Made by a program: the position numbers and the translations under genes. DNA of 64,000 nt, taken from NCBI GenBank assembly GCA_030390025.1, contig CM059431.1:124560001-124624000 (forward strand), written 5' to 3'. The number at the start of each line of letters is the position of its first letter. Position 1 is the first letter of the stretch. This stretch comes from Squalus acanthias. Lineage: Eukaryota. Shown in pieces: positions 6,857 to 54,764 of the stretch. Under the pieces are notes generated by a model, which was not told where the DNA came from, searched no databases, and saw only the letters and a program-made list of their open reading frames with translations.

Positions 6857-6907
6857 GTGATAAGCTGCAATCGAGCACTAGAGTGAACACGGATCCGCAC
6901 TCGGGCC

Positions 6908-22877: not shown

Positions 22878-24407
22878 ATCCTCTCCATTACCAAGACCAC
22901 CTACTTCCACCTCCATAACATCGCCCATCTCCGCTCCTGCCTCAGCTCATCTGCTGCTGAAACCCTCACCCATGCTTTTGTTACATCTAGATTTGACTAT
23001 TTCAATGCTCAATTAGCCGACCTCCCACCTTACACCCTCTGTAAGCTTCAGCTCATCCAAAACTTTGCTGCCCATATCCTAACTCACACCAAGTCCCGCT
23101 CCATCATTGGCGGATGTGCCTCAGCTGCTGAGGCCCTAAGCTCTGGAATTCCCTCCCTAAACCTCTCCGCCAATCTACCACTCTCTCCTCCTTTAAGATG
23201 CTCCTTAAAACCTCCCTCTTTGACCAAGCTTCTGGCCACCGGTCCTAATATCTCCTTCTTTGGCTCGGTGTCAAATTTTGTTTGATTACACTCCTGTGAA
23301 GCGTCTTGGGACATTTTACTATGTTAAAAGTGCTATATAAATGAAAGTTGTTGTTGTTGTTGTGTTTCTGTACCTGATTTGACTCTAATTCACCCTTCGT
23401 CTCCGTTTTTCCTCCATTTCATTCTCAATTCTTAAATCTCATTGGTTAAGGAGATACACTATTGGTCTCGCCGTTCACTAAGGCCCCAGATACCCCTTTC
23501 TATCGCTGCGCCGTTATCGGCTCGTACTTCCAGCAAGATACGGCGCAAAAAAATTTCAAGCTGAAGGTTGTAGGAAAAATGTAATCACCAGTCTGTTGGA
23601 GGAGGGCGGGGGGGGTGGGTGAGAAGGAAAAGAGATAGTGAGCAGAAATAAAGTGATTCCTCAAATGGAGAGAGAAAGCAATAATAGGGCAATTTAATGC
23701 TGGGTGCTCTTGAACATTTGGTAACCGTCAGTTAGGAAGAGAAATTGGAAGAAGCTTGTGAGTAGATCACCTACCTGTCCTCTCAATCAAGAATATTGCT
23801 TGGCCGACAGGAGCCAAAATAAGAACATATCCTTTTGTAAAATGTGTTAAAGAGAGAAGGTATTGCATATAAAAATTATGTTGAGGAAATGTAAACAGTG
23901 AAAGGTTTATTATGTTTAGCCATATTGATCGTTTGTCTTTTTTTTCATTAGCTTTTAATCAACTGCATGCAGCCAGCTTGGATTTTTGTTGGACTTAGTT
24001 TCAATACCTACTGTACAATACCATGCTGTAAGGCAGCAGGACCCAGCTAGCATGAAATCCCAAATCAAATCACAAAGTTCTATATGGAAAATGTTTCTTT
24101 GAACAGTCATTTTAAAGTGTTTCCTGACATGGTTATATGAAGCTTGATCACAAACATAACAGCCGGAATTTTCTGTACCTGGGCGGGTCGGCGTGGTGGG
24201 TCGCGACCCCATTGTTGGTTGCATCCCGCTGCAGAAATCGACTTTGCGCTAATGGGGCCTATTATGCCCGCCCTGCGCGTCACCCGGCCCTGTTAAATGA
24301 TGACGTCATCGATGACGTGTTTTCAGCTGGGATATTTAAAGGGGCCATGGCCGCATGGCATTTGAAGGTTCATCTAGAAGTGTGCAGGAAGCACACTGGA
24401 GGTTTTG

Positions 24408-26312
24408 ATGGCTGCACAGAGGCAGAGGGCTGCACCCAGGTGCTCCGATGACTCCCTCCAAACACTTGTGGAGGGAGTCAGAGCACGCAGGGAGGTCCTC
24501 TTCCCTTCCAATGGGCGGAAGTGAGCTCCAAAGGAGTAAAAAGAGCCTGGCTCCAAATTTCCGAGGAGGTCAACAGCAGGGATGTGTTTAGCAGGACCTG
24601 GGTGCAGTGCCGCAAATGTTTCACTGATCTCATTCGATCAGGAAAGGTGTGTGCAAAGCCCCAGTCAACTTCATCCTGCTGTGCCTCTCATCACATCCCC
24701 ATCACTCTGCCTTCCGAACCCTACTCCTGCACATCTTTACTCACACCAACATTCCTTGCACGTCCACCCATCCCTCTCTCTCTATCTATGTTTTTACATC
24801 CCCATCTTACTAGCCACCCCTCACACTCACCCTCATCCTAATGCAATCATAAGAACTAACAACAAGCAAGGAGGCCATTTGGCATTGTCACCCCACTCCA
24901 TCATAATCTCCCTCTAAAGATGTAACCCATCCATTCCTTACAGGCATTCCATCACTCTCACTTAACCTTCTCTTCTTTCCCTCCTTGCAGGAGAAGAGAG
25001 CATACAATAAGAAAGAGAGGGAGAGAACTGGAGGTGGGCCTCCATCATTTGCCACCCTCACAACAGCAGAGGAGGCTGAGTTGGAAGTATTGGGAGTGGC
25101 CGAGCAGCTGGAGGTGGGAGACGGATAGAGGGGGACATCTCAGCAACCTGGTGGCAGAATTACATATCATACAGCTACATGGCATACAGCAGTCACTCAT
25201 ATGGAGACTGATGTTCTCAGCTATTGGATGGTCATCATGTGCATAATGCTATGTGAACCTATTCTTCATATTGCACATCTTACTCTCCCACAGGTCCATC
25301 AAGAGCCCCCCCCCCCCCCCCCCCCCACTGTGCAGGAGGAAGAGGAAGATGACTCCTCAGAGGAGCCTTCAGCCTCTGACGGTGCACCGTCACCAGACAT
25401 AAGCGCACCCAGCACCAGCGCAGATATGCACGCCTCGGTGGGTCCCACGCGAGATAGAGTAGTGTTGTCTTCGGGTTCGTCACAAGTCACAAGTGAGCAA
25501 GAGCAGATGGTGGAGACAGGGACAGTAGTGGAGACTACTCACTGGCGGGCACAGGATGCTCCCAGCTCTGCTCAGCTGCATGCAGAAGCTGAGCCTCAGG
25601 GGCCATCAAGAAAGAGGGTGATCCTGGAGGTGCAGGAAGAAGTGCAGGAGGCTTTGACAGGTTTTACGACTGCAGTGTCTGTAAATGTTCACAGAATGGA
25701 GGAGTCCATCTCCAACATGAGCACCACCGTGTCGCAGGCGATGGTGACTGTAGGCTCTTCCATGGATAGAATGGCCACCTGCATGGAGCAGCTAATGTGC
25801 CACTCACAGGAGCACATGGTCTCTATGGAGAATAGATGGCTATCTATGGAGAATAGATGGCTATCTATGGAGCAAATATGGCAGACCGCCTCTCTAGGAG
25901 GGGGGATGTCAGCATAGAGGTGGGTCCTCATGGCCCCACTGATATGCAGCAATGTGCTGTCCAGCTCATTGCTAGCAGGGGCGTGCGGGTGGCCCATGAG
26001 AGGGATGACGTTGAGAGGGGAGATGGAAGTGTGGGCTCTTCTCAAAGCGCTCACACTTCTCCCCCGTTGCCACCCCCTCAGTTAGAGCCCCAGATGGCTC
26101 CTCGGAGCGCAATGGCCGAGGTTGCCCCTGCAGAGTCACAGGAGGAGCAGCCTTTGGTGCGGCCATTACAAGCTCCAAAACCCAGAGGACGTCCTCCAAG
26201 AGTGACTAAGCAGTCGCAGAAAGGAAGTGAGCAGGCTGTCTGTAACTCTCCAGGAGCCACAGGGGTAGCACCTCGTAGAAGCATGCGGAAGAGAAAGATG
26301 ACACACAAGTAG
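24408..26312 (+). pseudogene. Harbinger Myb/SANT-like DNA-binding protein gene, 3 exons (24408-24646, 24991-25150, 25294-26312), disrupted
   Basis: AAPRCSDDSLQTLVEGVRARREVLFP..AWLQISEEVNS..RTWVQCRKCFTDL, then EKRAYNKKERERTGGGPP; GT..AG introns; stops and frameshifts; basic C-terminus RRSMRKRK. Confidence 0.85.
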
Positions 26313-26609
26313 ATTCACAAGGGTAGCCATTTGGGTGCTTTAGTCATTGTTAATGTCAAGTTTCCGTTAATGTATTGTCAACCATAAAAATCTTTATTTT
26401 CACCACTTTCCCGTCTTGGAAATATTCATGCGCACCTTTGGAAGTGGCTTAGTGAGTTGCAGTGAAAGGTGAAACATAATGGTACCTCCAGCAATGGTGG
26501 TCAGTGTGAAAGGAATCACTTGGGCATTGTAGGGATCCTTTATGGTGTTGCTTTGGGGTGGTGTCAACCTGGCACAGCATGTGGCAGCCATATGTGTGTA
26601 CTGCATAAA

Positions 26610-27050
26610 GGAAAGCAAATCTGGCCATGATGAAGCCATCCCTGGTCTCCCGGGCAGCAATGTGAAGAAGTTGAGTGCGCTGGTGATTTTGACAGCCACT
26701 GGCAAGGCATGTCAACCCGCTCTTCTGGGCTGCAGGTCTTGCTCGAGCAATGTGCAAAATGTCTGTGACGACCTGACGTGTTAGCCTGAGCCTCCTTTGG
26801 TACTTTGGCACTGCTGCTCAGTCATGTTGAGGAAGCTCATCCTCTGCCTGTATACCCTGTGTTGGGGGTATTGCCTCCAGCTCGGTGCAGCCCGGCGCTG
26901 ATGCCCTCTGTCCTGTGCAGCATCAGTTGGTTGAGGAGAAGGTTGGTGGTGTTGTTGTTGGTGCTGCTGGTGTGCCTGGTTCTGCTGGTGTTGGGGCTCA
27001 TCGTGGTCCGATTCTGAGGACCAAGGTGACACAGTATAAATGGCACTGAT
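26610..27050 (-). pseudogene. Harbinger transposase remnant with the DDE core deleted
   Basis: Q/H-rich N-terminus, YPQHRVYRQRMSFLNMTEQQC, MPVAVKITSALNFF, joined directly to the C-terminal AARETRDGFIMARF. Confidence 0.85.
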
Positions 27051-27597
27051 GCTGATGGAATAGATGGCAGGTCAAGTAGAAATCAGAGGAGCAATCTGTC
27101 AACGGTGTGATAGGTTGCAACAATGATGTGAGATTGGATGGCGACTTTGCTAGAAGCAGTTGCAGCCTGTAGAAAGCTAATTGTGTGCTGGGAATGCAGT
27201 CAGCAACAGCTTCTCCCTGAGGAAAGTGACCAGCTGTGAGGTGGGAGGTTTTATAATACATTTCATGCTGTCATCTAATCAGCTGGAGCAATGACCACTG
27301 AACTCCTGCCTCAGGCTGACAGACGTGGTTCCCGAGCTGCTGGATCCCGTGGGCAGCCAGGGAAATGTGAAAGGTAGTCTAAAAAATGCTCTTAAGGGTT
27401 TGACAACTACCTGTTAATGATTTGAATTAGCTCGCCCGCCTCTGCCGTTCGGGTCGCTGCCACGCCAGCAAACGTACCCGAGGGAAAGGGCCATGGGGGC
27501 GGGATGATGGCGGGTTCCAAACCACTGTAACTTATTTCAAATTTCCCACCTGACCTGCCTCCAATTGCGCCCGCATGGACCCCAGAAAATTCCGGCC

Positions 27598-27915
27598 AAC
27601 ATAATTGCAATTCTCCCTTGATTCAGCATTTCAAGTCTCTAATTGTTTTTGGACATTAATGATAAATTGGCAATCCTGAGCCTATGGAATGCATGTTTTA
27701 CAGATCTATAATTACCAAGCATTATGTCATTCAAATCATAAATATATTTATTGCAAGTATATTTATGAGTTTGGTTCACATGGACTACATAGAAAACCTC
27801 CCCCTCTCCAAATGTATAAGAAGCACTATATATGGCAGGAGAATGGGCAGCGCACATGGAATGGTGCATTCTTGCAATTACGCACAAGAAATGTTTCTGA
27901 TCTCAGCTTTGTCAT
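27598..27915 (+). repeat. Left arm of an old inverted repeat (continues at about 24129-24160, across the Harbinger insertion)
   Basis: Reverse complement of about 30231-30600, e.g. tggcaggagaatgggca vs tgcccattctcctgcca. Confidence 0.9.
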
Positions 27916-30195: not shown

Positions 30196-30230
30196 GAGGG
30201 AGGCTTTTTGCATTTGCTCTCCCCAGCCCA

Positions 30231-30600
30231 GGGACAAAGCAGAGATGAGAAACATTTCCTGTGCGGAATTGCAAGAATGCACAATTCCATGTGCGTTGCC
30301 CATTCTCCTGCCATACGTTGTACTTCTTAAACATTTAGAGAGGGGGAGATTTTGTATATGGTCCACATGTACCAAAATCATAAATATACTTATAAGAAAC
30401 ATATTTATGATTTGAATGACATAGTGCTTCGTAATTGTAGATCTGTAAAATATGCATTCCATAGGCTCAGATGTGCTAATTTAACATTATTGTCCAAAAA
30501 CATTCAGAAGAGACTTGAAATTGCTGAATCAAGGGAGAATTAAGAAGAAAAAGTATTGATTGCAATCATGTTATGTTTGTGATCAAGCTTCATACTACCA
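30231..30600 (-). repeat. Right arm of the old inverted repeat
   Basis: Matches 27598-27915 plus 24129-24160 in reverse complement. Confidence 0.9.
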
Positions 30601-31647
30601 CCTTACAGGAATGTAATTTTAGCACCACATCATTTATTGACTGAACTATCAGATAAATCTCTGTAAAGAACTTCTGTCTAGGTGTGTGTTCCACATCCCT
30701 CTTGGCCTTATGAAGACATCTCAATTTTGGCCAAGAGGATTTGGCACTGCCTTGGCATGTCCAGTATCTACAATGCTAGAACTATAGACTCACAGCTGGG
30801 AAAAGAGATTTTAAATCCTAGTTACTGGCCAATTTTCCCCCTGTCAGTGAGTTCACCAGTTTTGCCCAGGGTACCTGGGGGGAGAAAATGGAAAATTGAC
30901 CAACTTAGGGAATCTTTCTTGAACCATTCAAAATTATCTGGCATTAACAATATTCATGCAAAATTGATAGAGTGCCATTCTAAACAAGGAAAATAGTATC
31001 ATGTAGAATATTAAATTGGCTTAGAGGGTTAAATTATGATAAAAGGTTGCATAAACTTGACTTGTATTCTCTTGAGTGTAGAACATTGAAGGGTGATCTG
31101 ATTGAGGTGCTTAAAATGTTAAAAGAATTTGATGGGGTAGATACGGAGAAATTATTTCCTCTGGTGGGGGAATCAAGAACAAGGAGACATGGGGGAGAAA
31201 TTGGAAGCGTTAGCTCTATTCACTACCGCCATGAAATGTCAAAAAGACGGTGGCCGGTGCTCTTCCGCCAGCTGGTGATGGATCCATCGGCACGGGCCAT
31301 TTTAGAGCTGCCAGTAATGCTGCCTGGAAACACTAGCGCCAAGGACATTTAAATAACAGAAATCGTGATTTAGCCATTTACCTTAACAGCAGCACAGAAC
31401 AGCGACAGGGAGAGCTGGCGTCTGCCAGTAGGAAGCAGGCTGCAGCAGTGATATTTGAAGGCACCATCCCCAATCAGTTGCACCTGACATGGTTCAGCAG
31501 TTTCAGCGGCTGTTTGCTACTTCCTGCAACTGAAACAGCTTTCTTTAGTTATTTCAAGTTTTTATTGGTCGCAAGGAGTGTTGATTCAAGTGCAGAAGTC
31601 CCTCGATATTTTTTAAAGGCTTCCGCTCGCAACACTTGCTCACAGTC

Positions 31648-32820
31648 ATGGGGGCTGTACTGGCAGTTGACCTCGCCCTCCAGGAACTATGGCAGAGGGA
31701 GCGGAGGCAGCGAGAAAGACGGGAACCTGCAAACAGAGGCAGGAGGAGGAGGGCCATGAGGGCTCTCAACAGGAGGCCTTACCCACCTAGGGTCGTTCGA
31801 CAGCACTTCTCTTACCTCCACTTAAGCAAGGAGTAGAGTCTTAGGAGGCTATGCTTCAGCAAGGAGGTGGTCACAGAACTCTGCCACCTCCCACAACCAG
31901 ACCTGCAGTCTGAGAGCAGAGTGACCACAGCTCTCCCAGTATCAGTCAAGGTCACTGTGGCACTCAATTTCTTCGCCAGCAAATCCTTCCAATCTGCAGC
32001 AGGAGTCATAGCTAACATCTCACAGTTTGCCATCTATCGCTGCATACGGGAGGTCATTGAGGCTCTCTACACCAGGAGAAGGGATTATGTTTGCTTCTCT
32101 CTGAGCAGACAGAAGCAGGACAAACATGCATGTGGCTTTGCCAAGATAGAGGGCTTTTCCATGCATGTAGTTTTGCAGGCACCGTAAAACAATCCTGAGA
32201 TCATTTGGAACCACAAAGGCTACCACTCACTTAATATGCAGTTGGTATGCGACCACACACAGCGAACCCTCAATGTCAATGCCCACTATCCTGGCAGCAG
32301 CCATGATGCCTTCATCCTGCGTCAGTCCGGTGTGCCAGCAATCTTCCTGCCACCACAGCAAACTTGAGGGTGGCTGCTCAGAAACAGGGGCTATTCACTC
32401 TCCACCTGGCTCATGACTCCCCTCCACAACCCCAACACTTGTGCCCAGCACTCATATAATGAGAGCCATGCCTGCACCAGGAACATTATCGAGCAGACCA
32501 TTGGGCTACTGAAGCAATGGTTCCGCTGCCTTGACTGCTTGGGAGGAGCCCTCCAGTGTGTCCCATTTCGTGGTGGTCTGCTGCATGCTTCACAACTTCG
32601 CCATCATGAGGCCCAGCCCTTGCCAGCAGGGATTGCGCCAGCACCTCAGGAGGAGGATGAGGGAGAGGAGGATGAGGAGGAAGAGGAGGAAGATGAAGAG
32701 GAAGAGGACAAGAATGAGGACGAGGAGCAAGAAGATGAGGAGGGAGGGAGGAAGGAGGCACCCATTCGTCCATCTGGACTGGCTGTCCATGAGCAGCTCA
32801 TAAGACTCCGATTCGCATGA
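31648..32820 (+). pseudogene. HARBI1-like (DDE_Tnp_4-type) transposase, disrupted
   Basis: MGAVLAVDL..RRPYPPRV, VSVKVTVALNFFASKSFQ, KGYHSLNMQLVCDH, YPGSSHDAFILRQS, YNESHACTRNIIEQTIGLLK; acidic tail; stops and deletions. Confidence 0.9.
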
Positions 32821-33020
32821 AGGAAATGCAGGTCCCCATTGCACACCACATCCCCATCATACCATCCCTGTGTCATGGAATATCACATCGCTCTCTTGGG
32901 CACAAAGGTGAAATGAGACACCCCATAAAATATCCCAAACACAATTAATAAATTTACCAATAATCACAATGCACATATTTGCAATTATACTATTAACTAA
33001 TCATCCTTGTGGAATCCCTA

Positions 33021-34826
33021 AGAGAAGATTTTTTCAGGGTGTCAGCAGGTGCGTTTGGTGATGGGTTGGGTGGAGAAAAAAATGTTTTGACAGTGGGTCG
33101 GGACCTCACTGTCAACCCACCGCCATGCGACTTTCGCAGATGTCAGGCCTGTCAGTGCTGCACAGACCCAACATGCAGCAGCGTGGGAGGCAATTCAGAT
33201 CATTATGACCTTGTTAATAGCCCTTGAAAAAGTATTTTCAGCTCACCATACCATTTTACAAGGTTGCTCATGGGGTCCACACTGCTCGGGGATCACGTAA
33301 GGTAAGCAGGTCGGGAGTTGTATGACCAGGGGGTCATCTCATTACTTGACAGCTGCAAATGTGCTATAAAAGCTCCCATCCCACAGCTGTTCACTTTCCA
33401 AGCTCAGAAGCTGTTGCTTACTGCATTTGAAAGACAGATTGAGCTTTCTGCAGGTTGCAAGTGTTTGGAATAAACTCTCTATCCAGTGTCACCTCATTGT
33501 AACAACCTCTCTCACCATTGACAGATCGCTTCTGTCATCTCAACTTCACCTGCCATCTATTACATCAGCATCGGTGCCCTTGAAACTATCTCACCTTGGT
33601 CCTCAGAATCTCACCATGATCAGCCCCAACACCAGCAGCAACATGCACACCAGCAGCATCAACAACAACACCAACCTTTTCCGCAATCAACTGATGCTGC
33701 ACAGGACACAGGGCATCAGCACCCGACCACATTGCTGCCCGGGAGGCCAGGGATGGCCTCACCATGGCCAGATTTACTTCACTTGACGCTGTAAACCCTC
33801 GCTGCCACAAGTTGCGCCAGGTTGGCATTACCCCACACCAACACCATAAAGCATCCAAATATTGCACAAGCCATTCCTTTCACACTCATCACCATTGCGG
33901 GGGCGGGGGGGGGGGGGGGCGGATACCGTTATGTCTCACCATTCACTGCAACTCACTAAGCCACTTCCAAAGGTGCCCACAAATCTGTCCAAGAACGCAA
34001 AGTGTTGAAAATAAAGGTTTCAATGTTTGACACCACATTAACAGAAACTTTACTTAAACATTGGCTAAAACACCCAAGTGCCTACCCTTGTGTGTTGTGA
34101 GTTGGTATGATTGCACTTGGATGAGGGTGAGTGTGAGGGGTGGCTTGTGAGATGGGGATGTGATAATGTAGATAGAGAGGAATGGGTGGAGTTGCAAGGT
34201 AAGTTGGTGTGAGTAAGGATGTGCAGGAGTAGGGTACAGAAGGCGGAGTGATGTGGATGTGATGAGTGGCACAGCAGGATGAGGGTGAGTGTGGCTTTGC
34301 AGTACCGTTTCGTGATCTACTGAGATCATTGAAAGGTTTGCGCCACTGCAACCAGGTCCTCCTGACGACATCCCTGCTTGTGTCCTCCTGTGCAATGTGC
34401 AACCAGGCTGCGTTGGTCTCCTGGGGAGGTCTCTTCCACCCATTTGAAGGGAAGAGAACCTCCCTGCGTATTGTGACTCCCTCCATAAGCATACGGAGAG
34501 TGTCATGGGAGAGCCTGGGTGCATCCGTGCGCCTATGTGCTGTGCTTGTCAGTGTTTGCAGCACCTCAATGCTGTAGAACACTGACAGCACAATTGTCAA
34601 AATAAATTTGCACATGGTCCTTTTTAGGAAACCGGCTGATGACGTGTCATCAAATGACGTCACCAGACCTGCTTCCTTCAATTGGCCAGCAAACGCGCTG
34701 GGCGGGCTTAACAAGCCCAATCAACGCAAAATCATTCTACACAGCTGGCTGGAGCCAGCAGTGGGGTTGCAACCCATCACCGACGTTGCCCGCCACGGAC
34801 CCAACGAGGTAGGGGAAATTGCGGCC
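33021..34826. mobile_element. Harbinger family C deletion derivative nested in the family B element
   Basis: Ends in aaattgcggcc; minus-strand Myb exon (EGVTIRREVLFPSNGWKRPPQETNAAWLHIA..RRTWLQWRKPFNDL); transposase N- and C-terminal remnants on +. The left boundary is approximate. Confidence 0.8.
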
Positions 34827-42311: not shown

Positions 42312-43053
42312 GGCCCAAAAATTAGTGAGGGAGCCTTCGTGCGAGGGTAAGGCTTCCCCGCGATCTCTCACTGCGCGCTGGCTTTTTCATTCCCAGCTCG
42401 CACGAACTTGATGTTCTGGACAGCAGCTGTGCAGGGCTTCCGTATCCCACAGGCGCAGTTAATTCGTGCGAGCTGTGGGATCACGTGACTCAGTTAGAGC
42501 CAATGGCAGCACACCATCTTTCATTCATAGCTTTCACAACAAGTGCTGTGAAAGCTATGAATCTATACCCCCCCCAAAAGAACAGCTAAACCTCAATTAA
42601 ATTAAAAAAAAACATCACATTAATAAAATAAGTATAGTTAAATAAATTAACCATTATAAACAAAAAATTAAATTTTTGAAAACATTTAAAATCTTTTAAA
42701 AAGTTATAAAAATAAACTTACCTTTCTTTAAAGTCTCTAAAAAAGATATACCTGTTGAAAAAAATTCAAAATAATACTTAATTAACTACTTACCTTGTTA
42801 AAAGAGGGTCTTACGCCTCCTTTCTTTATGTGCAAAATCTTCCATACTTACCTGCACGTTCAAAGCACTAAGTGCACTGCGTGCGCGCAGCCTGTAGCGC
42901 GCACGCGGTTCACCTAGGAACCGCCCCCTTTTGAAATGACCAAGTGCCGGTTTTCAGCGCATGCGCAGTGCATGCAGAAAACCGGCAATTGGAGACAGAA
43001 TACGCGAGAGTACACAGTGCGTACTCTCGCGTAGCAACACTAATTTTTGGGCC
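42312..43053. mobile_element. MITE, 742 bp (same family as 21229-21971)
   Basis: Perfect 16-bp TIR GGCCCAAAAATTAGTG / CACTAATTTTTGGGCC; flanks ATT/GTT. Confidence 0.92.
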
Positions 43054-43164
43054 GTTATCTTTTATCTCTATTCACATGGATTCTATTTCTGTCTTGCTGA
43101 TATCTGTGGCACTTTTTTCTACTGCCATTATGTTATCCTTAAAAAGTACAGCTGCTCCACCTCC

Positions 43165-43516: not shown

Positions 43517-43982
43517 ATGTGGTGATGATGTGTGCTCTGTTGACTGTTCTTCTATGACTGTGCACAGATAACACTTAATGCTCCTTGATTCGCGAATATA
43601 GGAAATTATGGCCTGAATTTTCTGGCATCTGCACGGGCATAATTGGAGGTGGGTCGGGAGGGAAATTTGAAATACTTTGGAGTGGGTTGAGAACCTGCCA
43701 TCATCTCGCCCCCACGCACCTTTCCCTCGGGCATGTTTGCCAGCGTGGCAGTGACCCGAATGGCAAAGGCGGCCGAGCTAATTTAGAAGATTATTAGCTA
43801 CTTGTCAGATCCTTATACCTCTTTTTAACATGACCTTTCAAGTTTTCCTGGATGACCATGGAATCACGCAGCTCGGGAGCCACGTCTGTGAACCTGTGGC
43901 AGAAGTTCTGTGGCCATTAATCCAGCTCATTTGTACACAGCACGAAAAGTACAATAAAAACTCCTACCTGACACCAAGTGGG

Positions 43983-44785
43983 TATAAGTCTTTCTCTTAC
44001 TACTCTTCGGTCCTCGAGAATTACGAATTAGCTTAACAATGACAGACAAGGATGTGATCAATAAAATTGGTCTTTATTCACACTATAGTTCAAAATTCGA
44101 GTGTGCATAGAAGCACCTTTGGCAATAAATTCAAAAACTCTCGGCAATGAATATGCCTGCAACTTATTAATTCAAATGTACATAAAAGTACCCCCATAAC
44201 AATTCATACGTACATAAAAGTACCCCTGTAACAACATCTAAGCTTATGTCTGACTTTCATACATACTCCTTTATCTCTGGGTGATCGGTCCAGGGAAATT
44301 GTAAGTCGAAACATAGACTGGCCAGCTTTCTCAGCTCATTCATCCTCCTGCTCTGTCTTCTGGGCTTCTTCTGAATCCCTCTTGGTTCCTTCTGTATTCC
44401 TTCTGAATCTTGCATCTCCTGCCCCTGGGTTACTTCTGTTATCTTACTCTCTGCCTCCTTCTGATAGGTCAGTTCACTCCAAACCTTCCCTGATTGGAGT
44501 TCCTTCCGCATAACACATTTCTGTTCCTGTGAGATGTATGGGGGAGGGACTTCCTTGTCAATCATGTTCTTTCTTCTTGTCCATGTGGCCTCTCAAACAA
44601 AGAACACATACTGACCACCAGGCAAAGGATCCCCTGCTGACTGTCACCATTTTGTGTCTTCACAAACAAAGAACACATTTTGATTTCCTACATTTTGAAT
44701 CCGTCCGTTATCATCTCACAATTCGTTTGCAATTTCGATCTCCACATGGTAGCTGTGGTTTCATCACAATTTTCAGAATCTTACA
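43983..44785 (-). mobile_element. Solo-LTR-like insertion (about 803 bp) in the TIR of a family B Harbinger
   Basis: Ends TATAAG (decayed TGTAAG)...CTTACA; minus-strand AATAAA near 44073; internal tandem repeats. The TSD is not clean. Confidence 0.55.
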
Positions 44786-45264
44786 GGGAATAATTCGATA
44801 CCTTAGCGCCTCCCATTAGTGCCAGCAGATGATGCTAATGGGGCGCTAGAGCATTATTGCTGGGGCGAGGTGAATTCAATGCCGCACGTCAAATCCTGCC
44901 CACCACAGCGCCGCTGCTAACAGTTATCAGCAGGAGCCTCAACGGCAGGTGGATTGTGATGTCAGTGAGTGTGCAACGCAATCTGTGAAATTGATCATCA
45001 CCACCTACCTTAGCGCCTGGAGTATACAGCAACAGGGAGAGCTGGCGTGAAGCAGCAGAAAGCCAGCTCCTGGAATGTTATTTAAAGGGATCGTCAGTAA
45101 TGACTCACAGATGTCAGGTTAGTGGAGTTTCAATGGTTTCTTGTCAGTTTCACATAGTGCAACAGTTTAATTCAGTAATTTCAAGGTTATTTTGTATGAG
45201 GAGCATTGTGGCAACTAAAAAGTAGCTACTTTTATTCTTAAAAAATTCAAACTTGGTTATATTA

Positions 45265-46420
45265 ATGGGGGCTGTACTGGCAGTCGACCTCACCCTCCAG
45301 GATCTATGGCAGAGGGAGCAGAGGCAGCGAGAACGACTGGAACATGTGGCCAGAGGGAGGAGGAGGGACATGAGGGTTCTCAACAGGAGGCCTTACCCAC
45401 CAAGGGTATTTTGTGAGCACTTGTCCTACCTCCAATTAAGCAAGGAGCAGTGTATTAGAAGGCTCCACTTCACCAAGGAGGTGGTCACAGAACTCTGCCA
45501 CCTCCTGCAATCAGACCTCCAGCCTCAGATCAGGGTAACCACGGCTCTCTCAGTGGCAGTCAAAGTCACCATCGCCCTCAATTTCTTCACCGGTGGATCC
45601 TTCCAGTCTGCAACAGAAGACATAGCTAACATTTCACAGTTCACCATCCATTGCTGCATCCGGGAGGTCACAGAGGCTCTCCACAGTAGGAGAAGGGACT
45701 ACATCTCATTCACCATCACCAGAGAGAAGCAGGACGAGCGTGCATGTGGCTTTGCCAGGATAGTGGCTTTCCCCTTGGTGCACGCCGCCATTGACTGCAC
45801 CCACGTTGCTTTGCGGGAACCTCATAACAATCCTGAGATCTTCCGTAACTGCAAAAGATACCACTCACTTAATGTGCAGATAGTGTGCGACCACAGATAA
45901 TTAATCTTTAATGTCAATGCCCGCTATCCTGGCAGCAGCCACGATGCCTTCATCCTGTGCCAGACCGGTGTGCCTTCACGCCTCCAGCTACCACGTCAAG
46001 CTCGCGGCTGGTTGGTCGGGGACAAGGGCTATCCTCTCTCCAACAGGCTCATGACTCCCCTCCACAACCCCAACACTCATATAATGCGAGCCATGCTGCC
46101 ACCAGGAACATCATCGAGCAGACCATCAGGGTGCTCAAGCAATGATTACGTTGTTTTGACCACTCGGGAGGAGCCATCAGTACTCAGCTGAGCGGGTGTC
46201 CCATTTCGTGATGGTCTGCTGCATGCTCCACAACTTGGCCATCATAAGGGCCCAGCCCCTGCCACCGGGAATTGTGGGATCCCCTCAGGAGGAGGAAGAG
46301 GGAAAGGAGGAGGAAGAGGAGGATGAGGAAGAGGAACAGGAGCGAGGGAGGAGGCAGCCACTCAATCGGCCTTCTGGAAAGGCGGTCTGTGACCGCCTCA
46401 TCAGACTGCGGTTCCAATGA
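45265..46420 (+). pseudogene. HARBI1-like transposase, near full length, few disruptions
   Basis: Open for about 210 codons, including AIDCTHVALR and RYHSLNVQIVCDH; then a stop, GWLVGDKGYP, YNASHAATRNIIEQTI, VCCMLHNLA and a poly-E tail. Confidence 0.92.
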
Positions 46421-47681
46421 ATTAAACCCCAGATCTCCATTGCTCACAACATCCCCATCATTCCATCCCTGTCGCAGGTCATATCACAGCGCAAAGCTGA
46501 AATGAGAGACACCACAAAAAAAATCCAAACTGAATTAATAAATTTATCAATAATCAGTGAACACATAATTACAACAAAAATATTAACTATTCACCCTTGT
46601 GCAATCCCCTAGTGCCTCTCATTACTGTGTGAGATGTGAGTGTGAGTGTTGTTAGGTATAGATTGTTGGTGGATGAGTGCTGGGGGTGTGGTGCTTTGGG
46701 CAATGTGGTTCAGATGGTGGTATGTAACATTTGTTGAAGCATTCACTCACACTGACCACCCGAGTGAGGTCGTTAAATTTCTTCCTGCACTGTGTGTGGG
46801 TCCTGGGGACCACAGTGCTGCCTGAGAGGTGACGCGCTACCTCCCTCCACATGGTGTGGAAGACTTGTGGCGAGGGTCTCCTGCCACTTGCTGGATAGAG
46901 CACCACCCTCTGTCTCTCCACAGCGAACACCAATGCTTCCAATGTTTGATCGCTGAATCTGTGGGCTCTCTCACTGGGGCATGGATCTGCCATGAGTACA
47001 GCTGCTTCAGTTCTCCGGCTCCTTCTCCTTGACCTACTGCTGATTGCTGAGGCAGCTGCACAGCCAGCAATGCTGAGAATGAGGTTCTGCAGCATCAAGA
47101 ACCTCCCCTTTAAGAATTGGAAAAAGTAGTGTCAATCATGACTTGCGATTAGACTGCACCTGATATTAGTCCACCTTTTGAGTGTAACGCCAATGAGCTT
47201 GGGCTTAAAGATTTGAATTAGTGCTCCAGTCATTTCTTTTATCAGTGAGAATGAATTTTGCATGCAGTTTAAAGCATTAGCGCCTGGTGCTATTTCTCCA
47301 ACTTTTCTACTGATACCGCCCATTCCTTGGCTATAATGAATTTCTAGCCCCAGGTCACTTTCCTAAGGCAGATGCTGTTGCTGATTTCATTGTTAGCTCG
47401 AGAACCACGTCTGTGAACCTGAGGTGGAAGTTGAGTGGCCATTGATCTACCTGATTAATGCATAGCATGAAAGTACAATAAAAATTCCCACCTGACAGCT
47501 AGGCACTTTCCTAAGGCAGAGGCTGTTGCTGAGTACATTGTCAGCACAGATTTAGCTTTCCAGTGTTTGGAAGTATTTTCAGCAAAGTCGGGATCCACTG
47601 TTACCTCATTGGTAGCACCTATCACACCATTGACAGATTGCTTCTCTCATCTCTACTTGGCCTGCCATCTATTACATAAGC

Positions 47682-48950
47682 ATGGGTGCCATTTATACTG
47701 TCTCACCATGGACCTCAGAATCGGACTAAGATGAGCCCCAGCAACAGCAGCACCAGCCACACCAGCAGCAGCAGCCACAACACCAGCAGCAGCCTTCTAT
47801 TCAATGACCTGATGCTGCACAGGACAGAGGGCATCAGAGCAGGACTACACTGAGCCAGAGGCAATACCTCCAACACAGGGTATACAGGCAGAGGATGAGC
47901 TTCCTCAAGCTGATGGAGCAGCAGTGCCAAAGGAGGCTCAGGCTATCGTGACAGGTCGTCTTAGACATTTACAGATTGCTGGAGCAAGACCTGCTGCCCA
48001 GAGGAACGGGTGGACACACCTTACCAATGGCTGTCAAAGTCACCAGCGCCCTCAACTTCTTCGCCTCAGGCTCCTTCCAAGGATCTGCTGCAGACATTTG
48101 TGGCATCTCACAGTCGGCCGCCCACAGCTGCATCACACAGGTCACCGATGCCCTGTTTGACAAGTCAGCCAATTATATCAACTTTACCACTGATGAGCCA
48201 GTGTTACTAAACTGGCGCTGGCCTTTGCCGCTCTGGCTGGCTTCCCACGGGTGCAGGGCATCATCGACTGCACACATGTGGCCATCAGGACACCCCATCA
48301 TCATCCAGGAGTTATTAGCAACCACAAGGACTTCACTCCCTCAATGTGCAGCTGGTCTGTAACCATAGGAAGATCATCATGCATGTGTGTGCCAAATTCC
48401 CTGGCAGCTGCCATGATTCTTTCGCCCTGCGCCAGTCCACCCTCCCTCAGCTCTTTGCTGCTGCAAACAGACTTTCGGATGGCTACTTGGAGATAAGGGC
48501 AATCCACTGAATACGTGGCTCATGACACCCTTGAGGAGGCCAAGTACTGAGGCCGAAGAGAGATATAATGAAAACCACACGTCCACCAGATGTGTCATAG
48601 AGCAGACAATAGGCATGCTGAAAATGCATTTCAGATTCCTTGACAGATCTGGAGGAGCCCTTCAGTACGCACCAGCAAGGGTCTCCAGAATCATTATGGT
48701 CTGTTGTGCCCTGCACAACATAGCGTAGCAGCGAGGATTAGCGCTGCATGAGGAGCAAGGCACTGAGTGCACAGCCTCTTCAGAGAAGGAGGAGGAAGAG
48801 GAGGAGGAGGAGCAGGAGCAGGAGTAGCATCAGCTGGAAGATGAGGAGGAGGAGGAGCAGGAGGAAACTGCGATCCATATCCCACCAGCACCCCAGCATA
48901 TTGCTGCCCGGGAGGCCAGGGATGGCATCTTCATGGCCAGATTTACTTAA
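47682..48950 (+). pseudogene. Family A HARBI1-like transposase, near full length, frameshifted
   Basis: [91 protein letters not shown]. Confidence 0.92.
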
Positions 48951-50029
48951 CTTCAGACATTACACCCATATGGCTGCCGCATGCTGCGCCTTGTTTGCAC
49001 TGCTCCACAGCAACACCATAAAGCATTGTCCATAGATAGCCATCTATTCCCCATAGATAGCCATCTATTCCCCATAGATAGCCATCTATTCTCTGTAGAG
49101 ACCATGTGCTCCTGTGAGTGACACATTAGCTGCTCCATACAGGTGGCCATCCTATCCATGAAAGAGCCTACAGTCGCCATCGCCTGCGACATGGTGGTGC
49201 TCATGTTGCAGATGGACTCCTCCATTCTCTGCACATTTGCAGACATTGCGGTCTCAAAACCTGTCAGAGCGTCCTGCACTTCTTGCTCCACCTCCAGGAT
49301 TGCCCTCTTTCTGGATGGCCCCCGAGGATTAGCGTCTGCATGCAGCTGAGCAGAGCTGGGAGCGTCCTGCGCCCTGCAGCGAGGAGTCTCCACTGATGTC
49401 CTTGTCTCCACCATCTGCTTTTGCTCACTTGTGACTTATGAGACACCAGGTGACAACGCTACTCTATCTCCTGTGGCACCCACCGAGGTGTGTGTATCTG
49501 CGCTGGTGTTGGGTGCACTTATGTCTGGTAATGGTGCGCCCTCAGAGGCTAGAGGCTCCTCTGAGGAGTTGTCTTCCTCTTCCTCTTGGACAGTGAGGGG
49601 GGGTGGGGTGGGGGGTGCTCTTGATGGACCTGTGGGACAGTAAAGGGATGAGTTCGATATGTCATATCAAGAATGGGTACAAATATCATTATGCACATGA
49701 CCATTCAGTGGCTGCTGACATCAGTCCCCATATGAGTGACTGCTGTATGCCATATGGCTGTATGAGATGTAATTCTGTCACCAGGTTGCTGAGATGTCCC
49801 CCTCTCTCTGTCTCCTACCTCCAGCTGCTCTGCAACTCCTAATACTTCCAGGACGACCTCCTCTGCTGCTGTTAAGGTGACCAATGATGGAGGGCCAGGT
49901 CCGGTTCTTTTCCTCTCCTTCTTATTGTGGGCTCTCTTGTCCTGCAAGGAGGGAAAGAAGAGAAGGTTCAGTGAGTGTGATGGAATGACTGTAAGGAATG
50001 GATGGGTTACATCTTTAGAGGGTGACTAT

Positions 50030-53000
50030 GATAGAATCATAGAATCATAGAATGGTTACAGCACAGAAGGAGGCCATTCAGCTCATCGAGCCCATGCTGG
50101 CTCTCCGCAAGAGCACTTCAGCCAGTCCCACTCCCCCGCCCTTTCCCCGTAGCCCGGCAAATTTGTTTCCTTCAGGTACTTATCCAATTCCCTTTTGAAA
50201 GCCACGATTGAGTCTGCCTCCACCACCTTCTCGGGCAGTGCATTCCAGATCCTAACCACTCGCTGCGTAAAAAAGTTTTTCCTCATGTCGCAATTGGTTC
50301 TTTTGCCAATCACCTTAAATCTGTGTCCTCTGGTTCTCGACCCTTCCGCCAATGGGAACAGTTTGTCTCTATCTAGTCTGTCCAGACCCCTCATGATTTT
50401 GACCACCTCTATCAAATCTCCTCTCAACCTTCTCTGCTCTAAGGAAAACAACCCCAGCTTCTCTAGTCTATCCACGTAACTGAAGTCCCTCATCCCTGGA
50501 ACCATTCTTGTAAATCTTTTCTGCACCCTCTCTAAGGCCTTCACATCCTTCCTAAAGTGCGGTGCCCAGAATTGGACACAATACTCCAGTTGAGGCTGAA
50601 CCAGTGTTTTATACAGGTTCATCATAACTTCCTTGCATTTGTACTGTATGGGGGAAAAATTGGGTATCGCCCATTTTGGGGCACTAATATCCGCCGGTCG
50701 CAAATTTTAGTGCCCGGCGCAAATTATCGTCACTCACGACAAAATTCATTTCCAGCGCCCCTAGAGGTGATTGGAGCGCTAAATCAATCACTACACATTT
50801 CTCTTAGGGCTCTAACGTCGGGGAACAGGGCGCTACCTCAGAGCACTCCTCAAGCTCAGGCGATGTCAATTACCCTTGTACTCAGGCAGACTGGCGCCTT
50901 CCAATTCTTAAAGGGGAGGGTCCATCATGTTGCACAGCCTCTCCCTGATCATTGCTGCTTTTGACCTCGGCCTGCAAGCAGGTAAAAATCTTCAGCAAAG
51001 ATTCATGATGGCTACTCAGAGGCCCAGGGAGAGAGCTCTGCCGGTTTAGCGACCAGGCATTTGTGGCTCTGGTTGGCGCTGTGGAACGCCGACGGGCAGT
51101 GCTGTTTCCAGACACTGGCAGGAGGCCATTGCCCGGGAGTTTACAAGGATCTGGAGGGAGGTGGCCCAGCACGTTTCATCCAGGAGCCTGGTCCAAAGGA
51201 CTCATACCCAGTGCCGCAAGAAGTTCAACAACCTCATTCGAGTGGTCAGAATGAGTACATGCTTGAAAAACCTTTACATCCCACCATCTCAATCTCACTC
51301 TGTGCACAGACGGTGTAAATTCCCAAATCCCCAACACTTACCCAACAACTATGCCCATCTAATAAAAGTCACATCCACATCCCACATTTTGCAGACATTA
51401 ACAGCTATTCAATTATGGTAGGCACATCTGCCAAACACATGGCTGCACACTCAGTCAGACGCTCTCCTTTTTCTTGCAGGCCAAGCTTTCACATAACTGG
51501 AGGGAGCAACAATGCACAGGAGGAGGACAGGCGGAGCTGTACCCCCTCACACAACTGGAGGAGCGAGTCCACAGACTCATCGCCAGTCATGTTGTCGGCG
51601 CTGTGGCTGTTGGAGAGATCGACCCCCTTTGGGACAGCAGCGGTATGTTCATCAGCTTTATCTCCTCTCTCATACCACTTTCCCCTCACAACTCCAGCCT
51701 TTTACACTTTCCCTCTAACTATACTGTCTCCAGTCCTTGCTCCCTTCCTGCCCCACTGCCCTCATGTTAAAGCCACTCTTGTACCTTCCTGCATTCAGAT
51801 AGTGACTCACCAGCTGAATAGCCTGTCCCTCAGCCTGCCAGTGGCAGCGATGGGGGAGAGGAGGAGGAACACGAAGCCCTCACCTCACCGCCTGCATCTC
51901 CCGAGGGTGAGATATCCAATACTGGGGCCACGCGTTCACTGGAGGGGAGCAGGGGGTTTGGATCTGATCTGGGTGAAGCTCTGTGACCCAGCGGGCTGCA
52001 GCAATGCCATGGGGGAAGGGAAGCTCGGGGGCTCTCTCCCCAGAGGGTGAGTGCGCGCATGAGTTCTGCTGCACAGGACTCAGATGAGGACCTTGATATA
52101 GCAGCCATGAATACTCAGGCAGTCAGCATGCATACGGAGCTCATGGGTTCAATGGCAAAGGTGCCTGAGAGTATGGATGCACTGGCTAGGAGCGTGGAGG
52201 AGTCCGCCGCCAGCACAGCTGTCATCTGTGCGCAAACCCTTGAACCCATCCTTACCTCGTTGCAGAGGATGGTTGAATTCAAGAGATACCGTGGGAACCC
52301 AGACCCCATGCCATGTCTAATGGGTGAGAGCCACCGTCACCTTCACTGCCACCGACAGAGACGTCCTGGTCCTGAGCTGAGGCTGGAGCTCTGGTTACAG
52401 GAGGTAGCAGAGCTCTGTGACCACCTCCTTGCTGAAGCGCAGCCTTCCAAAACACTGCTCCTCGGACGAATGAATGTCGGAGAATTGCTCCTGGAATATC
52501 CTGGGAGGGTGAGGACTTCTGTGCAGAGCCCTGTTGGCCCTCCTCCCTCTGGCTACGTTTGCCACTCTCTCTCTGCACCTCTGCTGCCTCCGAAGGTTAA
52601 GCTGGAGGACAACGCCCCGTGTTAGTACAGGCCCCATTTAATCTTCTAAATATGATAGTAATAAAACTGACAGAAATGGGAACCTGAAAAGTGTTGGTGA
52701 GGAACAAAACTCCTTGTAGGACAGCGTTAAATCTCTCCAGACGTCGCTCTCCCTCTCTCAACCTGCGTATGCAGAATATTTTGCCGACAGGAAAATGCAG
52801 AAGCGCACGCCTTTAAATAGCGCTCCCCCAGCTCCCAGCCGACTGCAAAACGTCCCCCTCTACCTGTCGTTCCTAGCAGCAGGCGCTAAGGCAGGGGGCG
52901 AGAATCAATTTCCGGCTCGGGGTGCTACCGGGGCGTTGCACGCTTTGATGACGTCATGATCTCCAGACACAGAAGATCGTGGCGGAAGTGTTTAGCGCCA

Positions 53001-53243
53001 CCGCAAAGTGCCAGGTCAATTTCGTGGGCGGCAGTAAAGTCACCGCGCTCGGGTGGTAAGTCGTTAGGCACTAACGGGAGGCGCTAACCAACTGAATTTT
53101 TCCCCCATGGTTCTATTTATGAAGCCCAGTATCCCGTATGCTTTTTTAACTGCTTTGCCAACCTGCCCTGCCACCTTCAACGATTTGTGCACATATACCC
53201 CCAGCTCTCTCTGTTCATGCACCCCCTTTAGCATTGTACCCTT
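50030..53243 (-). mobile_element. CR1 3' end inserted in intron 1 of the family A Myb gene, itself split (50030-50649 and 53107-53243)
   Basis: [38 protein letters not shown]; tail (atagaatc)n; resumes KKAYGILGFINR. Confidence 0.92.
50650..53106. mobile_element. Harbinger family B-related element: Myb/SANT gene (+, from 51008) and truncated transposase (-, from 52637)
   Basis: Perfect 12-bp TIR GGGGGAAAAATT; flanks at(g); RFSDQAFVALVGAVERRRAVLFP, RTHTQCRKKFNNLIRVV, AKLSHNWREQQCTGGG; GRLRFSKEVVTELC. Confidence 0.88.
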
Positions 53244-54764
53244 TGGAGTGGGGTGGAAATGCCAAGTGGCCTCCTTGTGTGTTGTTAGTTGGTATGATTG
53301 CATTAGGATGAGGGTGAGTGTGAGGGGTGGTTAGTCAGATGGGGATGTGAAAATATAGATAGAGAGAGAGGGATGGGTGGATATGCAAGGTATGTTGGTG
53401 TGAGTAAGGATGTGCAGGAGTTGGCTTGGGAAGGCAGATTGATGGGGATGTGATGAGAGGCACAGCAGGATGAAGTTGAGTGTGGCTTTGCACTCACCTT
53501 TCCTGATCTAATGAGATCATTGAAACGTTTCTAGCACTTCACCCAGGTCCTCCTCACAACATCCCTGCTGTTGACCTCCTCTGCTATTTGGAGCCAGGCT
53601 CCTTTGGTCTACTGGGAAGTTCTCTTCCACCCATCGGAAGGGAAGAGGACCTCCCTGCGTGCTCTCACTCCCTCCACAAGCATATGGGGGGAGTCATCTG
53701 AGAACTTGGGTGTAGCCTTCTGTCTCTGTGCAGTCATGTTTTCTAGTCTTTCCAACACTCCAATGGTCCAGTGCAGTACCTGCACAATCCGAGATGAACC
53801 TTCAAATGCAATGTTGCCATGGCTGCTTTAAATATCCCAGCTGAAAACACGTCATCTATGATGTCATCAGACCCGTACCATTTAATAGGGCCGGGTAACG
53901 CGCAGGGCTGCCTTAATAGGTGCATTAAGGGAAAGTCAATCTCAGGAGTTGGATGAAATGAAGAACGGGGTCGCGACCCGCCACGGAGACCACCCACACC
54001 TGACCCACCCAGGTACAGAAAATTCCGGCCTATGAGACCAATAATGTAGTGTCGGCACAATTCTTCTAGGTCTGCAGTGATTTTGCATGACAATACAAGG
54101 TCACTTTATTTAAATATTTTAGTCACATTGTCTGCATATAGTCCATGATGTGCTTGGAGGACCAGAAGATCGAATGTTAGACACCAGTGCGATGAAGCGG
54201 CTGCTGATTGCCTGTACTGTGCTACAATTATGTGGTAGGGCTCAAAGTACCTACTGAAGAATTGCCCATGAAAGCATGGAGAAAATTTGGCCATAAGTAA
54301 AGGTGACCAAGGAAAGGGCCGCCCTGGAGCTAAATGTTATCTTTTTTACGTGGACCTCCACTTCAGTGCCCATTGGAAACCGTCTCCAATGCTACTCAAG
54401 TGCTCCAGTCCTATTATGGAGAGGCAACCTAATTTGAATAATTTCTGGGGACTTAATGAATCATGTGCATTATTGTTGCAAAGGCTCCTATCATGCTAGA
54501 CATTACCTGGTCATATCGAGGTACGCTGAGCTCATCAGACGTGGAATAGACTTTAGGCCCCTATTACTGATAATAAAGAACCCCAGTGCCCAAAGTGTTG
54601 TAGAACTTCAGGTATCTACCATTGCATTATTGTACCTAATGAAACAGAAGCACCCTGATCCTTTTGGATCTTATATTATCAAATAGCAAACACTTGTGCA
54701 CAATTTGTGTATGGACATGTTGCTGTAACATATTGCACATATCACAGCACAAATGATTTTTAAA

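What the first reader, a model, noticed from the sequence alone, without database searches (positions are those of the whole stretch)
24161..54030. Multi-family two-gene Harbinger system, reconstructable from this window
Seen: at least three related families (A: GGCCGGAATTTTCTG TIR; B: GGGGGAGAAATT/GGGCTAGAAATT; C) share one layout. A single-exon HARBI1-like transposase and a spliced Myb/SANT gene are transcribed inward from opposite ends. The two family A copies are complementary: 24161-27597 keeps the Myb gene and 47682-48950 keeps the transposase. Known: Harbinger transposition needs both proteins, and HARBI1 and NAIF1 are their domesticated vertebrate relatives. Inference: a large and possibly poorly described chondrichthyan Harbinger radiation from which an active consensus could be rebuilt.
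Basis: partly seen in the sequence, partly recalled or inferred. Interest (0 to 1): 0.7.

Follow-up and report, generated by a model that had tools for sequence, protein, structure and literature searches.

The report
Decayed shark Harbinger transposon cluster
This stretch of shark DNA is a nest of dead two-gene 'Harbinger' jumping genes from two old lineages; the type is well known, every gene copy here is broken, and this window alone is too little to rebuild a working version.

Summary
Real but largely ordinary. The window (a shark, beside a SLITRK gene) holds about 21 kb of PIF/Harbinger DNA. It comes from two transposase lineages, A and B, 46% identical. Both have a single-exon DDE_Tnp_4 transposase facing a three-exon Myb/SANT gene; the exon junctions match an annotated Heptranchias protein. 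A paralogous empty site shows family A's 3-bp duplication.

Three corrections. (1) 47682-48950 is part of one nested element, 43610-54030, carrying both genes. (2) Neither 'kept' gene is intact: Myb has 3 frameshifts and 1 stop, the transposase 3 frameshifts and 5 stops. (3) It is not reconstructable here: 70% of a family A element, including the whole catalytic core, is covered by only one or two copies 14-19% apart. The complementarity is chance decay.

Harbingers are already reported in whale and grey reef shark repeat tables, and this scan found them repeatedly elsewhere in this genome. Repbase/Dfam could not be checked.

Best lead, outside the window: both lineages sit in a shark-and-ray clade holding five groups of conserved proteins, most lacking catalytic residues, that look like undescribed domesticated transposase genes.

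The parts
24161..27597 (+). Element A-1 (family A). 15-bp TIRs (24161-24175, 27583-27597), 3-bp TSD AAC; 834 bp of the transposase core deleted at 26664
24408..26312 (+). A-1 Myb/SANT pseudogene. Exons 24408-24646, 24991-25150, 25294-26312; frameshifts near 24523, in the C-run at the start of exon 3 and near 25860-25915; stop in exon 2
26610..27053 (-). A-1 transposase remnant (5' third plus last codons; start codon lost; end approximate)
30541..30600 (-). Empty-site paralogue of the A-1 insertion site, inside an inverted duplicate (27598-27919 ~ 30227-30600); carries a single AAC
31191..35779 (+). Element B-1. 12-nt TIRs, inserted in a CR1 LINE (net 2-nt duplication); transposase 31648-32820 (+; at least 3 stops, first Asp deleted, second Asp to Asn); Myb remnants on - (exon 1 from 35437; probable exon-3 piece about 34850-35140)
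33022..34826 (-). A-3: internally deleted family A derivative nested in B-1; Myb exon 1 present but donor lost; left border approximate
40267..41221 (+). B-2: 955-bp non-autonomous B element in a CR1 LINE
43610..54030 (-). Element A-2 (family A), TSD TAT/TAT. Own sequence 43610-43973, 47351-50035, 53244-54030; interrupted by two nested blocks; about 150-bp tandem duplication near 43870-47545
44784..47350 (+). B-3, nested in A-2. Transposase 45265-46420 (+; DDE kept, 2 stops, 2 frameshifts); Myb exon 1 46993-46751 (-) open with GT donor; exons 2-3 deleted; left end degenerate
47682..48950 (+). A-2 single-exon transposase pseudogene: D, D and E present; 5 in-frame stops, 3 frameshifts
49039..53737 (-). 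A-2 Myb pseudogene. Exons 53737-53498 (2 stops), 49942-49783 (open), 49630-49039 (1 stop, 3' part deleted)
50031..53243 (-). 5'-truncated CR1 LINE in A-2 Myb intron 1 (50031-50649 and 53107-53243), later split by B-4
50650..53106 (+). B-4. 12-nt TIRs, net 2-nt duplication; Myb exons 51008-51250, 51480-51642, 51799-about 52325 (+; first donor GT changed to AT); transposase 5' third 52637-52325 (-)
21229..21971 (+). Harbinger-type MITE with 12-nt TIR of the same pattern; 3-nt duplication (ACT/ATT) by CR1 reading frame
42312..43053 (+). Second copy of the same MITE (90% identical); 15-16-bp TIR, TSD ATT/GTT
56966..57315 (-). A-5: transposase-side end fragment of the A-3 subfamily
63261..63774 (-). 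A-4: fragment 90% identical to A-3, with the same internal deletion junction

Best explanation
The region is a graveyard of independent cut-and-paste insertions by PIF/Harbinger transposons of two old shark-and-ray lineages, piled up and nested in non-coding DNA beyond a SLITRK gene. When active, each element made a single-exon DDE transposase and, from the opposite end, a three-exon Myb/SANT helper. By analogy with zebrafish Harbinger3_DR, the helper binds the ends and brings the transposase into the nucleus, and the transposase cuts and inserts at a loose palindromic target, usually duplicating 3 bp. Deleted derivatives and MITEs were moved in trans. After insertion each copy decayed neutrally and took further insertions. 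The 'complementary' deletions in A-1 and A-2 are independent accidents, and neither copy can supply a protein. SHOWN: anatomy, TSDs, nesting, lesions, domains, splice layout, tree position. INFERRED: the biochemical roles, the order of some insertions, and that tolerance of insertions explains the local density.
For: TIRs far above chance. 3-nt duplication shown by an empty site for A-1 and by restored CR1 frames for both MITEs. DDE_Tnp_4 and Myb_DNA-bind_5 hits; D-D-E present in A-2 and B-3. A 465-aa Heptranchias protein with a Myb domain (P0083, XP_067827223.1) aligns exon by exon across both predicted junctions. Public contigs at 80% likeness skip the block in A-2 intron 1 (50031 to 53244) in 4 of 4 runs. 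They also share the A-3/A-4 deletion (47834 to 48886) in 4 of 4 runs, so that derivative is itself an amplified family. dN/dS between A copies is 0.63, 1.79, 0.77, 0.77 and 0.86 for five stretches. 9 of 14 half-sites fit the A-N-N-Y/R-N-N-T target pattern against 0.13 per half-site in background; the pattern matches the Harbinger3_DR consensus quoted in PMC3016246.
Against: Two of three complete B elements show a net 2-nt, not 3-nt, duplication relative to 12-nt TIRs. None of the 7 TSDs read is TWA or CWG, the types given for PIF/Harbinger proper and NuwaI in PMC4482050. No contig joint across 43974-47350 was among the 15 of 4926 joints shown, so the unity of A-2 rests on the matching TSD, orientation and collinearity only. 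No splice joint was listed in the two RNA-guessed runs. The target-pattern count used a register chosen after the fact for the 3 B elements; for the other 4 elements it is 4 of 8 half-sites.
Confidence: 0.9

Rival explanations
1. A-1 and A-2 are a complementary pair (helper from one, transposase from the other), or together suffice to define an active consensus.
For: Their deletions barely overlap: A-1 lacks 834 bp of transposase, and A-2 lacks the 3' part of Myb exon 3 and the gene gap. Together they cover a notional 4271-bp element.
Against: Both retained genes are dead (Myb 3 frameshifts and 1 stop; transposase 3 frameshifts and 5 stops). 1268 of 4271 positions (30%) have one copy and 1724 (40%) have two; the third and fourth copies belong to another subfamily, 78-81% identical to A-1. 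With copies 81-86% identical and near-neutral dN/dS, the ancestral state cannot be voted.
Confidence: 0.03
2. The B lineage is a variant Harbinger that duplicates only 2 bp (AT), like ISL2EU, while carrying a Myb helper.
For: B-1 and B-4 restore the host CR1 frame only when 2 nt are removed; contig joints at B-4 agree. All three complete B elements have AT next to their ends.
Against: In both cases an exact 3-bp TSD (CAT or ATG) appears if one end is read 1 nt shorter. B-2 needs a net 3 nt with a 12-nt end, or 4 with an 11-nt end, not 2. MITEs with the same 12-nt TIR pattern duplicate 3 nt. n = 3.
Confidence: 0.15
3. 43610-43973 and 47351-54030 are two different family A copies, not one element.
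For: 43870-43973 and 47395-47497 overlap in element coordinates and are only 82% identical; no bridging contig was listed.
Against: Same TSD (TAT) at both outer ends, same orientation and collinear order; the overlap is explained by one 150-bp tandem duplication.
Confidence: 0.15
4. The cluster is a true insertion hot spot (local hopping or targeting), not just tolerated accumulation.
For: Harbinger-like DNA is 46% of 18001-64000 and 0% of 1-18000; several elements are nested or sit in CR1 copies.
Against: Neighbouring copies are as diverged as unrelated copies and come from several subfamilies. The empty zone coincides with the intact SLITRK gene, as purifying selection predicts. No genome was held for a background density.
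Confidence: 0.12

Closest known systems
Harbinger3_DR of zebrafish (reconstructed, Sinzelle et al. 2008; seen only as cited in passages of PMC3016246, PMC9392472 and PMC9179366; the paper itself is not held)
   Same: Two genes (DDE transposase plus Myb-like), short TIRs, 3-bp TSD, palindromic target whose flanks read A-N-N-Y / R-N-N-T.
   Different: Central triplet here is AAC, TAT, ACT/ATT or similar, never CWG. The Harbinger3_DR sequence was not in my tree, so the distance is unknown. All copies here are dead.
PHIS groups of Han et al. 2015 (PMC4482050, parts 1-2 of 4 read)
   Same: Two ORFs with Myb/SANT as in PIF/Harbinger, NuwaI and NuwaII; TIRs start with G; about 4.3 kb; the teleost Harbinger clade is sister to the shark clade in my tree.
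   Different: TSDs match none of TWA, CWG or C|TNA|G. Pangu has no Myb. ISL2EU has YqaJ instead of Myb.
'Putative nuclease HARBI1' and 'myb-related transcription factor, partner of profilin-like' gene models of Pristiophorus, Heptranchias and Heterodontus
   Same: Same clade; A-2 is 76% identical to P0133, and B-1/B-3 are 70-74% identical to P0098; same Myb exon layout.
   Different: These are automatic protein names on what are probably transposon copies, not described transposon families.
Harbinger-Snek of sea kraits (PMC8437027, parts 1-2 of 4 read)
   Same: Massive Harbinger expansion in a marine vertebrate, with solo-ORF and short non-autonomous variants.
   Different: Snek is one young, horizontally acquired family. 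Here there are two deep lineages within a shark-and-ray clade, and the copies are old. No sequence comparison was possible.
HARBI1 and NAIF1 (passages of PMC9392472)
   Same: Derived from Harbinger transposase and Myb genes.
   Different: Those are single host genes of jawed vertebrates. The window's sequences are repeated, TIR-flanked pseudogenes. By my recollection of the human sequence, no true HARBI1 orthologue was among the proteins in the tree.

Membership tests
PIF/Harbinger superfamily (broad sense) | DDE transposase of the DDE_Tnp_4/HARBI1 type | tested here: met
   Pfam PF13359 on 4 pieces; D-D-E in A-2 and B-3
PIF/Harbinger superfamily (broad sense) | Second gene with a Myb/SANT domain | tested here: met
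   PF13873 above the curated cut-off in 4 pieces; collinear with P0083
PIF/Harbinger superfamily (broad sense) | Short TIRs starting with A or G | tested here: met
   15-bp (A) and 12-bp (B, MITE) TIRs
PIF/Harbinger superfamily (broad sense) | 3-bp target-site duplication (family A and MITEs) | tested here: met
   Empty site for A-1, matching TSD for A-2, CR1 frame for both MITEs
PIF/Harbinger superfamily (broad sense) | 3-bp target-site duplication (B lineage) | tested here: inconclusive
   Net 2 nt in 2 of 3 elements, 3 or 4 nt in the third
PIF/Harbinger superfamily (broad sense) | Both proteins needed for transposition | not testable with these tools
   From PMC9179366 introduction
PIF/Harbinger group of Han et al. 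2015 (narrow) | TWA TSD | tested here: not met
   0 of 7 elements
NuwaI | CWG TSD | tested here: not met
   0 of 7 elements with both ends read; B-3 has CAG on one side only and a degenerate other end
NuwaI | Transposase in the NuwaI/II clade | not tested
   No reference NuwaI sequence was available to the tree
Pangu | ANT TSD and a second ORF without known motif | tested here: not met
   Myb domain present; only one MITE has an ANT-like TSD
ISL2EU | YqaJ exonuclease second ORF | tested here: not met
   Myb found instead; no YqaJ or THAP hit in the 20 ORFs scanned
ISL2EU | 2-bp AT TSD | tested here: inconclusive
   Fits B-1 and B-4, not B-2, family A or the MITEs
Catalogued Repbase/Dfam family | At least 80% identity to a named consensus | not testable with these tools
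HARBI1/NAIF1 host genes | Single-copy intact gene without transposon ends | tested here: not met
   Multi-copy, TIR-flanked, broken

The most novel reading that the evidence does not exclude
The two lineages in this window belong to one Harbinger clade that has lived in sharks and rays since their common ancestor and has repeatedly given its transposase to the host. Five groups of conserved proteins nested in the clade would then be undescribed host genes. G1: 13 proteins from sharks and rays, 89% or more identical, first Asp replaced by Gly in all. G2: 3 proteins, DDE intact. G3: 6 proteins. G4: 4 ray proteins. G5: 7 galeomorph shark proteins. G3-G5 have lost the Glu. G3 and G4 branch in lineage B, G5 in lineage A. 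That would make elasmobranchs a hot spot of Harbinger transposase domestication, where HARBI1 was the only transposase-derived case named in the papers I read. Basis: protein identity and tree only; synteny, copy number and dN/dS untested.
Probability: 0.6. Interest if true: 0.55.

Novelty: new member of a known kind. Interest (0 to 1): 0.33.

Why it matters
A 2022 survey found no Harbingers in elephant shark and called for other cartilaginous fish to be examined (PMC9179366). This window shows structured two-gene families of two deep lineages at high local density. That fills a taxonomic gap but adds no new mechanism, and genome papers already list shark Harbingers. A tool-grade element would have to come from young copies elsewhere, not from here. 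If the conserved shark-and-ray proteins are host genes, they would multiply the known vertebrate domestications of Harbinger transposases and offer transposase/Myb co-domestication pairs to test.

Tried and rejected
No genome is held for the window, so no copy number, age profile or intact-copy search was possible. No RNA holder was listed for 24100-27700. Two runs guessed to be RNA were laid as contigs; none of the 15 of 4926 joints shown is a splice junction, which says nothing either way. Contig depth was not used as copy number. Shares of 0.22-0.38 in organisms A-E were not taken as evidence of an orthologous locus. A word-index search with the B-3 Myb exon found nothing among 58 candidates. 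There is no solved structure for the transposase profile, no Rfam match in the window, and no look-alike by sequence among earlier findings. (SLITRK ORF against P0083) was uninformative. My notebook entry that A-1 Myb has no ATG was wrong: ATG is at 24408. I first read 31191-33020 and 34846-35779 as two families; the joined CR1 flanks show one element. A 2-bp TSD for B-2 was rejected. Ultrafast bootstrap did not run; the tree supports are SH-aLRT from a fast IQ-TREE search. The paper search on sawshark, sevengill and Greenland shark names listed no paper containing 'Harbinger' among the 20 of 134 shown.
Full report
Setting. No genome is held for this window. The only long ORF, 6887-9517, is a single-exon LRR protein whose best solved relatives are SLITRK2 and SLITRK1. 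The transposon proteins' best named relatives are from sharks, so the host is a shark (inference; species not sought). Beyond about 18 kb the window is CR1 fragments and Harbinger-like DNA. By my delimitation of 16 intervals, Harbinger-like sequence is 21,027 of 64,000 bp: none in 1-18000, 46% of the rest, and 64% of 24161-54030.

Family A. The 15-bp TIR occurs at 4 sites, against 0.05 in shuffles. They pair into A-1 (24161-27597, TSD AAC) and A-2 (43610-54030, TSD TAT). An inverted duplicate of the A-1 flank at 30541-30600 lacks the element and has one AAC, so the 3-bp duplication is shown directly. A-2 is collinear with A-1 at 77-86% identity in five blocks. It is interrupted by an unidentified 810-bp piece plus B-3 (43974-47350), and by a truncated CR1 that itself holds B-4 (50031-53243). 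Public contigs laid at 80% likeness skip the second block in 4 of 4 runs; no joint over the first block was among the 15 of 4926 joints shown. A-3 (33022-34826), A-4 and A-5 are a deleted subfamily. The A-3/A-4 deletion junction recurs in contigs of 4 of 4 runs, so it was amplified as a non-autonomous family.

Genes. The transposase is a single collinear exon with Pfam DDE_Tnp_4 and the D-D-E triad. The Myb gene has three exons with phase-0 and phase-1 introns, and all four splice dinucleotides are kept in A-1 and A-2. At about 85% identity that alone is weak: 8 of 8 bases would be kept by chance roughly a quarter of the time (my arithmetic). Stronger support comes from two places. First, a search with exon 3 returned 14 proteins; 10 were looked up and all are from Pristiophorus, Heptranchias or Heterodontus, and 3 of the 14 carry a Myb domain. 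P0083 runs across both junctions, with 41 of 80, 22 of 45 and 132 of 331 identities to the three A-1 exons. Second, the distant B lineage has introns of the same phase at the same places, although B-4's first donor and A-3's donor are mutated. Splicing itself was not observed.

Nothing is intact. A-1 Myb has three frameshifts and a stop, and its transposase lost 834 bp. The A-2 transposase has five stops and three frameshifts; its Myb has three stops and lost its 3' part. The B-3 transposase has two stops and two frameshifts. B-1 has at least three stops and lost two catalytic residues. On a notional 4271-bp family A element, 1268 positions are covered by one window copy, 1724 by two, 759 by three and 520 by four; the catalytic core is single-copy. 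dN/dS between A copies is 0.63-1.79 over five short stretches, close to neutral; between B-1 and B-3 it is 0.45, as for separate subfamilies. The complementarity is real as geometry but carries no function, and the window cannot vote a consensus.

Lineage B and 'family C'. B-1 (31191-35779), B-2 (40267-41221), B-3 (44784-47350) and B-4 (50650-53106) share subterminal sequence and a 12-nt TIR pattern also used by two MITEs. The flanks of B-1 are two halves of one CR1, so the Myb piece at 34846-35779 is B-1's other end, with A-3 nested inside. A and B transposases are 46% identical; B-1 and B-3 are 68%. 'At least three families' holds at subfamily level, but there are two deep lineages.

Target sites. 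CR1 reading frames give net duplications of 3 nt for both MITEs, 2 nt for B-1 and B-4, and 3 or 4 nt for B-2 depending on where its end is set (contig joints agree for B-2 and B-4). B-1 and B-4 also read as exact 3-bp TSDs if one end is a base shorter, so a 2-bp variant is open but not shown. None of 7 TSDs is TWA or CWG. An earlier scan note proposed the flank pattern A-N-N-Y/R-N-N-T. 9 of 14 half-sites fit it against 0.13 expected per half-site, or 4 of 8 without the B elements, whose register I chose. The Harbinger3_DR consensus quoted in PMC3016246 has the same flanks.

Phylogeny. A profile of 9 transposases found 997 proteins at E up to 1e-20, of which the best 120 were listed. A FastTree of 131 sequences (reduced from 199, after 4 of 203 were dropped for short coverage) and an IQ-TREE of 51 hand-picked sequences, 321 columns agree. 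All shark and ray sequences and the three window read-throughs form one clade (SH-aLRT 99.9, but FastTree support 90), sister to sturgeon and teleost Harbingers (96). A-2 groups with Pristiophorus P0133 (99.9), B-1 and B-3 with P0098 (97.9). The sample came from a shark-weighted profile, lacks named reference elements, and monophyly was not formally tested. Inside the clade lie five groups of cross-species proteins with minimum pairwise identities of 89, 82, 71, 83 and 82%. Four of the five have lost at least one catalytic residue in all members. In G1, rays and sharks separate as the species do. These look like host genes; synteny and copy number are untested.

Literature. PMC9179366 (part 1 of 6 and passages): Harbingers not detected in elephant shark, other cartilaginous fish still to be analysed. 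PMC8455134 (2 passages): PIF-Harbinger present in whale shark. PMC12498223 (1 passage): Tourist/Harbinger the commonest DNA transposons of grey reef shark. PMC4482050 (parts 1-2 of 4): PHIS groups. PMC9392472 (12 of 21 passages): HARBI1, NAIF1, MSANTD1-4. PMC8437027 (parts 1-2 of 4). PMC3016246 (3 passages). PMC11893794 (8 passages): nothing on shark Harbingers. Nine searches (listings only for other papers) showed no description of these families or of shark-specific domesticated transposases. I read no supplements; the repeat tables of the shark genome papers, the additional files of PMC4482050, subscription journals and Repbase/Dfam may hold them. This scan has noted Harbingers many times elsewhere in the same genome, including a near-intact young copy and another 'complementary' pair judged to be independent decay (unchecked notes).

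Verdict. A genuine, well-resolved nest of dead PIF/Harbinger elements: probably unnamed families of a known superfamily, working as known Harbingers do. The reconstruction claim fails for this window. The lead worth following is the set of candidate domesticated transposases in the same clade.

Noticed in passing
proteins P0131 cluster (P0261-P0271, P0128); P0111/P0142/P0158; P0102/P0114/P0118/P0120/P0121/P0123; P0101/P0103/P0303/P0304; P0104/P0110/P0306-P0311: Five cross-species groups of shark and ray proteins nested among the transposon transposases, 71-89% minimum identity, most lacking catalytic residues: candidate domesticated genes.
   Followed up: partly
proteins P0179 cluster (turtles) and P0156/P0260 (caecilians): A conserved 349-350-aa Harbinger-transposase-like protein of turtles and caecilians lacking the first Asp and the Glu; by my recollection not HARBI1 itself, so possibly another domesticated gene.
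   Followed up: no
window 6887-9517 (+): Intact single-exon SLITRK-family gene; the 18 kb around it holds none of the Harbinger pieces I delimited.
   Followed up: partly
window 27598-27919 and 30227-30600: Inverted duplication, about 87% identical, flanking 2.3 kb that holds a Harbinger-like end at 28829 and a GATCCTC-rich minisatellite (29463-30197).
   Followed up: partly
window 43974-44783: Unidentified 810-bp insertion between the A-2 end and B-3; repeated in public contigs; no TSD found.
   Followed up: no
window 37169-37249 and 37763-37843: 81-bp inverted repeat at 94% identity around a piece that starts with a Harbinger-like GGCC end at 37314.
   Followed up: no
   Followed up: no
proteins P0088 and P0089: Heterodontus gene models named LEAP2 isoform and ANKAR contain a stretch like Myb-gene exon 3: exonised transposon DNA or annotation artefacts.
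   Followed up: no
window 25828-25875 and 49030-49090: A 21-nt unit (encoding ENRWLSM) is tandemly repeated in Myb exon 3 of both A copies, at the point where A-2 is deleted.
   Followed up: no
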